Assembly (NCBI RefSeq): GCF_056746865.1
Contig: NZ_CM163382.1
Strand: one strand, 5' to 3'
Length of the DNA stretch: 64,000 nt
The notes below the pieces were generated by a model. That model searched no databases and was not told where the DNA came from. It was given only the letters and a program-made list of their open reading frames with translations. The position numbers and the translations under genes were made by a program. Below are positions 62,763 to 64,000 of this stretch, in pieces (the stretch's first letter is position 1; each line of letters starts with the position of its first letter).

Positions 62763-64000
62763 ATGACAATTTCAAATTCGAATTTATTGAAACCGTTTAT
62801 TACTGGTACTGAGTTGCCGCCTTTTAAAGAGGATGTCTTTTCTAAAACAGAAGAACAATTTAAAAAAAGCCCCCATGGCAAATTGCTTTTCATTTCCGGA
62901 AATGAAAACTTAGTAAACATTTCAGCGGAAAAAATCGATGAAATAAAAAATAGCAAAGATTTCTTTTCAAATATTGTAAATATAATAATTTTACTCATTA
63001 AGCATCCTGAAAAAATTCTGCCCATTCTTCATGGTTGTCCTGTAGAGTCCATCGAACTCATTAAGAATGCGAAACGAACGGGGCAATGGTCATATGAGAT
63101 GACTGATAAGAACGGGCAGAGTATTGAAGTGTCCTATATTTTCACTGATACCATAGATAATAATTATGATGGAAAATTATGCTTAAAAATCTGTAACTCC
63201 TGCAACCAAAATGATTCTAGTACACATGAATATAAAATAGATCATCAACAGTTGAAAAATCACATAAGGCAACTTGAGGAGTGGGCCCTTCTTGAAAAGT
63301 TTTATGATAGCAACGCTTATTATTCTAAACGTACAAAACAATTAGAGAAGAAAATTGCCGATGCGGGGTTTATAGCAGGGAAGGTTAATGCCGATAACTT
63401 TAATGTAAAAGAGTTTAGAGCCGATATAGCCTCGATGCTTTGTGAACAGCCCCCCATGCGAACACACCAGATTTCTTCATCCGGATACTTATCTGCCGAT
63501 AAAGTGCCCGATCTCTATAAGACAAATTTGAAAGACGCGCAGAGAGATCTGAAAACAACACCGGTTGACATCGATGGTGTTAGTCTAAAATCAAAAACTC
63601 GGGAAAAAATTGCGGAAAAAATTGCGAAAAAAACTGAGGAAGAAAATGCGAAAAAAACAGCGGAAATAATTGCGAAACAAAATGCGAAGACCATTGAGGA
63701 GAAGAATAGTGAAAAAAACAAGAAAGAATCAAATCCTGAGGATAATTTTGTCTTAAAATTCTCACCGGAAGAAATCAATGAGATGCTCCTGGATTACAGC
63801 GATGAAGAACAAAAAAAATTAAGACCTTTTTTCACTAGTGATCACATCTATTGTTTGTTTGATGCTTTTAGTCAGGATTTGCATAATGTTGCTCGTAATG
63901 GCAGTCCACGGTATGCAGGTTTACTACGTCAAATAGCATCCAAGACTGCGAAATTACAAGATATTGATCAACTATTGTTCTGGCGCACGTTTTCAGGAGG
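62763..64000 (+). CDS. hypothetical protein, strain-specific AT-rich gene downstream of malZ; 3' end beyond window (partial)
   Basis: ATG at 62763 with GGAG 7 nt upstream; my manual translation of this frame finds no stop through position 64000 (>412 codons); not in the ORF track because it has no in-window stop; begins MTISNSNLLKPFITGTELPPFKEDVFSKTEEQFKK; no acpH-like ORF on the opposite strand. Confidence 0.65.
   Translation, partial: MTISNSNLLKPFITGTELPPFKEDVFSKTEEQFKKSPHGKLLFISGNENLVNISAEKIDEIKNSKDFFSNIVNIIILLIKHPEKILPILHGCPVESIELIKNAKRTGQWSYEMTDKNGQSIEVSYIFTDTIDNNYDGKLCLKICNSCNQNDSSTHEYKIDHQQLKNHIRQLEEWALLEKFYDSNAYYSKRTKQLEKKIADAGFIAGKVNADNFNVKEFRADIASMLCEQPPMRTHQISSSGYLSADKVPDLYKTNLKDAQRDLKTTPVDIDGVSLKSKTREKIAEKIAKKTEEENAKKTAEIIAKQNAKTIEEKNSEKNKKESNPEDNFVLKFSPEEINEMLLDYSDEEQKKLRPFFTSDHIYCLFDAFSQDLHNVARNGSPRYAGLLRQIASKTAKLQDIDQLLFWRTFSG
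63603..63722 (+). repeat. ten tandem degenerate copies of a 12-bp unit (in-frame tetrapeptide repeat) inside the novel ORF
   Basis: gaaaaaattgcg gaaaaaattgcg aaaaaaactgag gaagaaaatgcg aaaaaaacagcg gaaataattgcg aaacaaaatgcg aagaccattgag gagaagaatagt gaaaaaaacaag, encoding EKIA EKIA KKTE EENA KKTA EIIA KQNA KTIE EKNS EKNK. Confidence 0.85.

What the first reader, a model, noticed from the sequence alone, without database searches (positions are those of the whole stretch)
63603..63722. In-frame 12-bp degenerate tandem repeat (10 units) encoding a K/E-rich tetrapeptide array
Within the novel ORF, ten consecutive 12-nt units (consensus gaaaaaattgcg) keep the reading frame and encode EKIA-like tetrapeptides; the first two units are identical. 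A repeat like this predicts a charged helical linker and is a potential site for slipped-strand expansion or contraction, so it could vary between isolates. It also contains A6-A7 homopolymer runs that are error-prone in sequencing.
Basis: seen in the sequence. Interest (0 to 1): 0.5.

Follow-up and report, generated by a model that had tools for sequence, protein, structure and literature searches.

The report
Variable 12-bp repeat in orphan gene
A real in-frame 12-base tandem repeat sits in an Escherichia-only gene of unknown function; its copy number varies from 5 to 14 units between E. coli strains and lengthens or shortens a charged, probably helical linker, which is an ordinary kind of variation found at a locus nobody seems to have described.

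Summary
Ten in-frame 12-nt units (consensus GAAAAAATTGCG, EKIA-like) lie at 63603-63722. The periodicity is far above codon-shuffled controls (0 of 20,000).

The host ORF starts at 62763 and runs off the window. The full gene is 489 aa (WP_000155935.1; ECs_0454 in O157 Sakai). It is the only gene of a 1,675-bp, ~35% GC insertion between malZ and acpH. It occurs in 1,127 of 5,426 complete E. coli genomes. It has no relatives outside Escherichia/Shigella and no Pfam, NCBIfam, PHROG, PADLOC or PDB match.

Repeat-bearing alleles carry 5-14 units, in exact 4-aa steps. Eight groups of proteins have identical flanking domains but different unit numbers. Strain KE47 differs from the window over 2.2 kb only by loss of one of the two identical units. 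Only units 1-6 vary; units 7-10 are degenerate and fixed in number. About 31 genomes carry a repeat-less allele.

AlphaFold2 predicts one long helix across the array, at low confidence. The periodicity does not fit a coiled coil.

An A7 tract in the array carries a +1 frameshift shared by 26 genomes, nearly all labelled O145, and a -1 frameshift in an O157-type allele.

This is a new member of a known kind, a coding VNTR. The protein's function is unknown.

The parts
62575..62762 (+). Left end of the 1,675-bp low-GC islet, starting immediately after the malZ stop codon. It contains a 10-bp inverted repeat (62609-62618 / 62646-62655) and the untranslated leader of the orphan gene.
   Evidence: In K-12 the malZ stop and the acpH stop are 4 bp apart. 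Alignment of K-12 against the islet-bearing locus shows one clean 1,675-bp insertion. GC falls from about 0.53 to about 0.35 here.
62763..64000 (+). Orphan protein-coding gene: the first 1,238 of 1,470 nt. The ORF runs 232 nt beyond the window end. Full product is 489 aa, WP_000155935.1, 'hypothetical protein'; the orthologue in O157:H7 Sakai is ECs_0454.
   Evidence: Translation is open from 62763 to the window end. The identical locus in strain 118UI has a CDS at L001 9164-10633. The ORF is annotated as intact in 12 of 13 fetched repeat-bearing alleles. The chance of an open 489-codon frame at this base composition is about 7e-17. No nonsense change occurs among at least 243 substitutions, where 9-12 would be expected if neutral.
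63603..63674 (+). Copy-number-variable half of the array: units 1-6 (EKIA EKIA KKTE EENA KKTA EIIA), each 9-12 of 12 matches to the consensus GAAAAAATTGCG.
   Evidence: All unit gains and losses seen in DNA alignments of 10 alleles and in 55 protein repeat blocks map here. KE47 lacks exactly one of the two identical units at 63602-63613.
63675..63722 (+). Degenerate 3' half of the array: units 7-10 (KQNA KTIE EKNS EKNK), each 6-9 of 12 matches. Their number is the same in nearly all repeat-bearing alleles; one listed block, P0042, may lack unit 7.
   Evidence: The block ...IAKQNAKxIEEKNxEKNKKE... recurs in almost all repeat-bearing alleles.
63712..63718 (+). A7 homopolymer tract inside unit 10, a recurrent frameshift site in other lineages.
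   Evidence: A7->A8 is shared by 26 complete genomes (100% identity over 101 nt), nearly all labelled O145; the gene in RM9873-C1 is annotated 'frameshifted'. O145 strain RM12275-C1 has A7 and an intact CDS. Protein P0170 (O157-type allele, strain DEC4C, seen on 14 contigs) ends ...EKTRNKQILRIILS, the reading expected after A7->A6 at the same tract (reading-frame derivation is mine).

Best explanation
The feature is a coding minisatellite (an in-frame VNTR). A 12-bp unit, GAAAAAATTGCG, was amplified in tandem inside an Escherichia-restricted orphan gene. That gene is the only one in a 1.7-kb AT-rich islet between malZ and acpH. Because the unit is four codons long, misalignment of neighbouring near-identical units adds or removes whole (E/K)(K/E)(I/T/N)(A/E) tetrapeptides without breaking the frame. 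The misalignment would arise by replication slippage or unequal recombination between sister copies. The 5' units are the most alike and are the ones that change in number. The 3' units have drifted apart and are fixed. Alleles therefore range from 5 to 14 units. In the protein, the array forms a variable-length, 50% charged segment between a conserved N-terminal part of about 276 aa and a conserved C-terminal part of about 155 aa. It is most likely one exposed alpha-helix acting as a spacer whose exact length is not critical. Shown here: the repeat, its frame, the copy-number polymorphism, indels in register on identical backgrounds, and the position between conserved regions. Inferred: the slippage mechanism itself, the helical spacer role, and tolerance of length change. 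The protein's biochemical function remains unknown.
For: Repeat and periodicity. Frame and gene. Protein lengths 469-505 aa in 4-aa steps, with all indels in the array. DNA alleles differ by 12, 24 or 36 bp in register, including a perfect 36-bp tandem duplication in ETEC4075. Eight groups have identical flanking domains but different unit numbers, which needs at least 12 events. KE47 equals the window allele minus one unit, with no other difference in 2,201 bp. An evenly spaced sample of 58 of the 1,127 genomes gives span classes corresponding to 481 aa (29), 485 aa (18), 489 aa (10) and 497 aa (1): calibrated. A natural repeat-less allele occurs in about 31 genomes. Helix prediction over the array. 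Composition is 50% K+E, and the hydrophobic moment peaks at 90 degrees and is near zero at 100 degrees. The ORF is held open by selection.
Against: The helix rests on low-confidence models: whole-protein mean pLDDT 37, and block means of 53-68 over the helix in the segment model. No disorder or coiled-coil predictor was available. dN/dS against the window allele is high, 0.4-1.4, so the gene is only weakly constrained, and a functional role for the linker length cannot be assumed. In-frame behaviour is not itself evidence of selection, because any slippage by a 12-bp unit preserves the frame. No consensus promoter was found upstream, and no expression data were found in the literature. Mutation rate was not measured. 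Within the sampled O157-type genomes the array length is constant, so instability is modest.
Confidence: 0.8

Rival explanations
1. The length differences come from homologous recombination that swaps whole diverged alleles between lineages, not from slippage within the array.
For: Alleles are up to about 7-10% diverged and look mosaic. For example, the W619 type has a much more divergent central and C-terminal part (dN 0.10) than N-terminal part. The three identity bands suggest distinct allele classes, each with a typical length.
Against: Eight groups have 100% identical N- and C-terminal domains but different unit numbers. KE47 and 118UI are identical over 2,201 bp except for one unit. New units are exact copies of their neighbours. 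Recombination probably spreads alleles but does not create the length changes.
Confidence: 0.1
2. The repeat-number differences and A-run frameshifts are sequencing or assembly artefacts of an AT-rich, low-complexity stretch.
For: A6-A8 runs are error-prone on 454, early PacBio and Nanopore platforms. P0189 (506 aa) and P0184 show odd 'KKTR/KKKREKKTRKK' stretches that look like local frame errors. The DEC4C frameshift comes from draft assemblies.
Against: All 30 best-listed complete genomes match the window at 100% and 139 match at >=99%. Length classes differ by exact multiples of 12 bp, not by the +/-1 bp typical of errors. The A8 allele is shared by 26 complete genomes listed with varied sources and hosts.
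Confidence: 0.04
3. The ORF is a decaying or non-functional remnant, and the repeat is neutral junk DNA that merely happens to be in frame.
For: There are no homologues outside Escherichia/Shigella among 1.84 billion cluster representatives. No domain or family matched. dN/dS is 0.4-1.4. No consensus promoter was found. The gene is absent from 79% of complete genomes. It is inactivated in O145-labelled genomes and deleted in an O55:H7 strain.
Against: A 489-codon ORF in 36% GC DNA has a chance probability of about 7e-17. No nonsense substitution occurs among at least 243 substitutions in 13 alleles, where 9-12 would be expected under neutrality, giving P between 5e-6 and 2e-4. Long invariant stretches exist in both flanking domains, including eight invariant cysteines. 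At least 1,094 genomes hold a near-full-length copy.
Confidence: 0.12
4. The array length is itself adaptive: a tunable 'ruler' or an antigenic or target-evading segment under diversifying selection. The A7 tract would then act as an on/off switch, making this a contingency locus.
For: There are 55 distinct repeat blocks and 10 length classes. dN/dS is elevated across the gene. Independent +1 and -1 frameshifts occur at the same A7 tract, and one O145 strain is intact.
Against: Array length is constant within the sampled O157-type genomes. A7 is shorter than the tracts of classical phase-variable genes (my own knowledge). The protein has no signal peptide-like or membrane-spanning segment visible in the sequence (by inspection only), so surface exposure is unsupported. 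No test for selection on length was possible.
Confidence: 0.08

Closest known systems
In-frame VNTR (coding minisatellite) loci of E. coli/Shigella, such as those used for MLVA typing (own knowledge of the class; MLVA papers seen were not read for this locus)
   Same: Tandem units whose length is a multiple of three lie inside an ORF. Copy number differs between strains through gain or loss of whole units. The most homogeneous units are the unstable ones.
   Different: I found no evidence that this locus is described or used for typing. The units are degenerate, with only two identical in this allele. The array appears stable within clones, so it is much less variable than the 6-7-bp O157 MLVA loci.
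TolA domain II and similar Ala/Lys/Glu-rich helical spacers (own knowledge)
   Same: A low-complexity K/E/A-rich repetitive segment, predicted as one long helix, joins two functional domains and tolerates length differences.
   Different: There is no sequence relationship, since nothing was found by Pfam, NCBIfam or PDB searches. The host protein has no obvious membrane anchor. The 4-residue period is stricter than in TolA.
ER/K single alpha-helix (SAH) domains (own knowledge)
   Same: High charge, many oppositely charged i/i+3 and i/i+4 pairs (6 and 8 in 36 residues), a predicted isolated helix, and no hydrophobic face at 100 degrees per residue.
   Different: Charge is only 50%. Ile/Ala appear every fourth residue. 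The helix would be about 36 residues long. Its stability as an isolated helix is untested.
Contingency loci with frame-shifting simple repeats (Haemophilus, Neisseria, Campylobacter; own knowledge)
   Same: Slipped-strand mispairing in a repeat inside a gene. The embedded A7 tract has produced +1 and -1 frameshift alleles.
   Different: The 12-bp array never changes the frame, so it changes protein length, not expression. The A7 tract is short, and the frameshift appears inherited within a lineage rather than rapidly switching.

Membership tests
Coding VNTR / in-frame minisatellite | Head-to-tail tandem copies of one unit, more periodic than composition explains | tested here: met
   TRF finds period 12 with 7.1 copies. 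Lag-12 identity is 0.657 against 0.413 +/- 0.046, with 0 of 20,000 codon shuffles reaching it.
Coding VNTR / in-frame minisatellite | Unit length a multiple of 3, with the array inside an ORF and in frame | tested here: met
   The unit is 12 nt and the array starts 840 nt after the ATG at 62763.
Coding VNTR / in-frame minisatellite | Copy number differs between isolates by whole units | tested here: met
   There are 5-14 units in 10 length classes and 55 distinct blocks. DNA indels of 12, 24 or 36 bp are in register.
Coding VNTR / in-frame minisatellite | Changes arise in situ, on otherwise identical haplotypes | tested here: met
   Eight identical-flank groups differ in unit number. KE47 versus 118UI shows a single 12-bp gap in 2,201 bp.
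Coding VNTR / in-frame minisatellite | Elevated mutation rate measurable within a clone | not testable with these tools
   The only indirect datum is that 15 of 15 sampled genomes with the O157-type allele have the same span, which suggests a modest rate.
Canonical heptad coiled coil | Hydrophobic residues with about 3.5-residue periodicity forming a continuous seam on an alpha-helix | tested here: not met
   Periodicity is 4.0. The hydrophobic moment peaks at 90 degrees (0.43) and is 0.06 at 100 degrees. No dedicated coiled-coil predictor was available.
ER/K single alpha-helix domain | Highly charged E/K/R-rich helix stabilised by i/i+4 (and i/i+3) salt bridges, stable in isolation | tested here: inconclusive
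   K+E is 50%. There are 8 opposite-charge i/i+4 pairs against 4 same-charge pairs. AlphaFold2 gives a helix at residues 279-314 with block-mean pLDDT 53-68. Stability in isolation is not testable here.
Phase-variable contingency gene (homopolymer switch) | Homopolymer tract in the ORF whose length differs between related strains and toggles the frame | tested here: inconclusive
   A7->A8 occurs in 26 complete genomes, nearly all labelled O145, while one O145 strain is intact. A7->A6 occurs in the DEC4C-type allele. Reversibility and rate are not testable, and a draft-assembly error is not excluded for DEC4C.
Any described protein family (Pfam-A, NCBIfam, PHROGs, PADLOC, PDB sequences) | Significant profile or sequence match | tested here: not met
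   Best E-values were 0.024 for Pfam, 0.08 for NCBIfam, 0.0013 over 32 residues for PHROGs, 0.097 for PADLOC and 0.78 for PDB. phmmer against 1.84 billion representatives found only the protein's own cluster and fragments of it.
Radical-SAM enzymes (considered because of an invariant CxxxCxxC motif at residues 140-147) | Match to the Radical_SAM domain profile around the CxxxCxxC motif | tested here: not met
   The Pfam scan reported no Radical_SAM hit. The motif alone is present and invariant. A weak hit to ArrB, E = 0.08, covers residues 101-146.

The most novel reading that the evidence does not exclude
The orphan protein is a fast-evolving, lineage-specific factor, for example an effector-like or defence-like protein. 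Its two conserved domains would be held apart by a helical spacer whose length is tuned by unit slippage (5-14 units, or none in the W619 type). Its expression would be toggled by +/-1 slippage in the embedded A7 tract. That would make it a combined 'length-variable plus on/off' contingency gene in E. coli, a species in which such loci are few.
Probability: 0.08. Interest if true: 0.55.

Novelty: new member of a known kind. Interest (0 to 1): 0.3.

Why it matters
This is a verified case of a coding tandem repeat that changes protein length between E. coli lineages, in a gene with no known relatives or function. Three practical points follow. (1) The locus is a simple lineage-level marker: presence or absence of the islet, allele class and unit number. 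(2) The array and its A7 tracts are places where annotation pipelines will report 'frameshifted' or length-variant proteins, so they should be treated with care. (3) The naturally occurring 0-, 5- to 14-unit alleles and the frameshifted O145 alleles form a ready-made allelic series for anyone who wants to find out what this orphan protein does. It does not overturn any current view.

Tried and rejected
- **Family searches on the full protein.** Pfam, NCBIfam, PDB-sequence, PADLOC and PHROG searches (also on the W619 allele for the last two) gave nothing significant.
- **Exhaustive phmmer search.** Against 1.84 billion representatives it found only the protein's own cluster and fragments, so no deep alignment could be built.
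- **AlphaFold2 on a 17-allele alignment.** Mean pLDDT was 37. I therefore ran no fold search, because matches to such a model would be meaningless.
- **Megablast with the array alone (63570-63730).** It returned 'No match' because the low-complexity filter masks the query. Allele counting by that route failed, and I used match spans and protein lengths instead.
- **Literature searches.** Searches by gene neighbours, locus tags (ECs0454 and guessed Z and c numbers), accessions, and VNTR+malZ found nothing about this locus.
- **Promoter and terminator scan.** No more sites were found than in shuffled sequence.
- **Minus-strand ORFs over the array.** The ORFs at 63515-63778 and 63580-63765 are the F/S/L-rich mirror image of a K/E-rich frame and change with unit number. 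I rejected them as genes.
- **Radical-SAM idea.** It arose from the CxxxCxxC motif and was rejected for lack of any domain match.
- **Assembly breaks at the repeat.** I suspected that draft assemblies break at the repeat. The partial proteins in fact start at about residues 155-200, upstream of the array, so that idea was dropped.
- **Scan of the genome or metagenome collections.** I did not run one. The exhaustive protein search already showed no relatives below the 50%-identity cluster level.

Full report
**Observation**

The stretch 63603-63722 consists of ten consecutive 12-nt units. Their column consensus is exactly GAAAAAATTGCG. The first two units are identical, units 3-7 match 9-11 of 12 positions, and units 8-10 match only 6-8 of 12. 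Tandem Repeats Finder independently reports period 12 at 63604-63688 (7.1 copies, 73% matches), together with higher-order periods of 24 and 36. Identity at lag 12 is 0.657. Shuffling the 40 codons of the segment gives 0.413 +/- 0.046. None of 20,000 shuffles reached the observed value, and 1 of 5,000 did when the best of all lags from 3 to 36 was taken. The repeat is therefore real and is not a side effect of K/E-rich composition. It is in frame and encodes EKIA EKIA KKTE EENA KKTA EIIA KQNA KTIE EKNS EKNK.

**What it sits in**

The end of the window is E. coli chromosome: proY, malZ (60757-62574), then a drop in GC from about 0.53 to about 0.35. An ORF starts at 62763 and runs off the window. 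The last 1,401 bases of the window are identical to strain 118UI. There the gene is 1,470 nt (489 aa, WP_000155935.1, 'hypothetical protein') and is followed by a convergent acpH.

In K-12 the malZ and acpH stop codons are 4 bp apart. The islet-bearing strains carry one clean 1,675-bp insertion containing only this gene. The gene is present, always on the chromosome, in 1,127 of 5,426 complete E. coli genomes, and in all 17 fetched loci it lies between malZ and acpH. In O157:H7 Sakai it is ECs_0454.

**The protein is an orphan**

The Pfam, NCBIfam, PDB-sequence, PADLOC and PHROG searches gave nothing significant. An exhaustive phmmer search of 1.84 billion cluster representatives returned one full-length cluster and fragments of the same protein at 66-98% identity. 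The word-indexed search found 379 proteins. The 120 listed are all at least 87% identical and are named Escherichia or Shigella where named. I found no literature on the locus.

It is nevertheless a real gene:
- An open 489-codon frame at this composition has a probability of about 7e-17.
- Thirteen alleles differ by at least 243 substitutions with no nonsense change, where 9-12 would be expected if neutral.
- Both flanking parts contain long invariant stretches.

Constraint is weak, however. dN/dS against the window allele is 0.4-1.4.

**Copy-number variation**

Protein lengths among homologues are 469, 473, 477, 481, 485, 489, 493, 497, 501 and 505 aa. In 169 full-length sequences the block between '...KTR' and 'EDNFVLKF' is 25-61 aa long in exact steps of four, which is 5 to 14 units, with 55 different blocks. 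A multiple alignment puts every indel of the protein in this block, between a conserved N-terminal part (residues 1 to about 276) and a conserved C-terminal part (from about residue 335).

At DNA level, ten alleles fetched from complete genomes differ by 12-, 24- or 36-bp indels in register with the units. One example is a perfect 36-bp tandem duplication in ETEC4075. An evenly spaced sample of 58 of the 1,127 genomes falls into four span classes. Calibrated on the fetched examples, these correspond to 481 aa (29 genomes), 485 aa (18), 489 aa (10) and 497 aa (1). With 10 units, the window allele is among the longer common ones.

**Mechanism**

Eight groups of proteins have 100% identical flanking domains but different unit numbers, which requires at least a dozen separate events. 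Strain KE47 differs from the window allele, over 2,201 aligned bases including parts of malZ and acpH, only by a 12-bp gap inside the two identical units. Newly gained units are exact copies of their neighbours. This is the signature of misalignment between adjacent near-identical units, through replication slippage or unequal sister exchange, rather than allele replacement.

The process is polar. All gains and losses fall in units 1-6 (63603-63674). Units 7-10 (63675-63722) are more degenerate, and the recurring ...IAKQNAKxIEEKNxEKNKKE... block shows the same unit number in nearly all repeat-bearing alleles. The rate is modest, because 15 of 15 sampled genomes carrying the O157-type allele have the same span.

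**A natural control**

About 31 of the 1,127 genomes carry a 461-aa allele (W619 type). Its linker is a 30-aa non-repetitive sequence, RRHLADIIHVKCMREKNYTTDQGFELPEEVIHA. This allele is also more diverged through its central and C-terminal part. By eye, DIIH/VKCM/REKN line up with EIIA/KQNA/EEKN. The array may therefore have grown from a short proto-repeat. That is an inference, not a test.

**Structure**

With only near-identical sequences available, the AlphaFold2 model of the whole protein is unusable (mean pLDDT 37), so I ran no fold search. Both that model and a single-sequence model of residues 262-369 place one continuous helix over the array. The spans are 277-307 (pLDDT 53-63) and 279-314 (block-mean pLDDT 64-68, falling to 53 at its C-terminal end), followed by a non-helical NSEKNKKESNPEDNF tail.

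The block is 50% K+E, with 8 opposite-charge i/i+4 pairs. Its hydrophobic moment peaks at 90 degrees per residue and is almost zero at 100 degrees. On a normal alpha-helix the Ile/Ala positions would therefore spiral around the axis instead of forming a seam. That argues against a canonical coiled coil or an amphipathic helix and fits an exposed spacer helix. This part of the explanation is inferred and of low confidence.

**Homopolymer tracts**

The window allele's sequence is not an assembly error: all 30 best-listed complete genomes match at 100%, and 139 match at >=99%. The A7 tract at 63712-63718 is a mutational weak point elsewhere:
- Twenty-six complete genomes, nearly all labelled O145 or O145:H28 and listed with varied sources and hosts, share A8 there. 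The gene in RM9873-C1, the one fetched, is annotated 'frameshifted'.
- O145 strain RM12275-C1 has A7 and an intact gene.
- An O157-type protein from DEC4C, seen on 14 contigs, ends in exactly the peptide expected from A7->A6 at the same tract.

Whether this reflects reversible switching, one-off inactivation or, for the draft genomes, sequencing error cannot be decided here.

**Comparison with known systems, and verdict**

The feature meets every testable criterion of a coding VNTR. It does not meet those of a heptad coiled coil. It is inconclusive for an ER/K single alpha-helix and for a phase-variable contingency gene. The host protein belongs to no described family. The closest analogues are the in-frame VNTR loci of E. 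coli and Shigella, and K/E/A-rich helical spacers such as TolA domain II (comparisons from my own knowledge).

The finding is genuine but ordinary in kind: a new member of a known class, in an orphan gene whose function remains unknown.

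Noticed in passing
window 63712-63718; L013 1511-1518: The A7 tract inside repeat unit 10 is A8 in 26 complete genomes, nearly all labelled O145 or O145:H28; the gene in RM9873-C1, the one fetched, is annotated 'frameshifted'. One O145 strain (RM12275-C1, L016) has A7 and an intact 489-aa CDS.
   Followed up: yes
protein P0170 (E. coli DEC4C, O157-type allele); equivalent to window 63712-63718: A 322-aa truncated product ends ...EKNIEKTRNKQILRIILS, the reading expected after loss of one A from the same A7 tract. It was seen on 14 contigs. It could be a real sub-lineage frameshift or a homopolymer sequencing error in draft assemblies.
   Followed up: partly
L011 1663-3048 (strain W619), especially 2490-2600: A 461-aa allele carries a 30-aa non-repetitive linker in place of the repeat array and has a much more diverged central and C-terminal part. 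It is present in about 31 of the 1,127 gene-positive complete genomes. It may preserve a proto-repeat (DIIH/VKCM/REKN).
   Followed up: partly
L012 1094-2834 (O55:H7 strain USDA5905): A deletion removes the 3' end of malZ and most of the orphan gene, leaving only its last ~336 nt fused next to truncated malZ. Both are annotated as pseudogenes.
   Followed up: no
window 63180-63203 (residues 140-147): A CxxxCxxC motif (CLKICNSC) has all three cysteines invariant across 17 alleles, and five further cysteines in the protein are also invariant. No radical-SAM or other Fe-S or Zn domain profile matches; there is only a weak ArrB hit (E = 0.08).
   Followed up: partly
proteins P0146, P0151, P0160, P0163-P0168 and others: Many 'partial' database proteins of this family start at about residues 155-200, upstream of the repeat, on contigs of only 10-14 kb. 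Draft assemblies of some lineages therefore break repeatedly inside the N-terminal half of the gene. The cause (IS insertion, coverage dropout in AT-rich DNA) was not examined.
   Followed up: no
proteins P0184 and P0189: In long alleles (505-506 aa) some units read KKTR or KKKREKKTRKK instead of KKNA. This looks like local, compensated frame changes within the A-rich units, or sequencing errors.
   Followed up: no
window 62609-62655: A 10-bp perfect inverted repeat (AGCCCTGACA ... TGTCAGGGCT, 27-nt spacer) lies just inside the left end of the islet, 35 bp after the malZ stop. It may be a terminator for malZ or a remnant of the insertion event. The terminator scan did not flag it.
   Followed up: no
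whole orphan gene, window 62763-64000 and beyond: dN/dS between alleles is unusually high for an E. coli chromosomal gene: 0.4-1.4, and above 1 for the O157, W619 and VE-T9 comparisons. The reading frame is nevertheless strictly maintained. This is compatible with either relaxed constraint or diversifying selection.
   Followed up: partly
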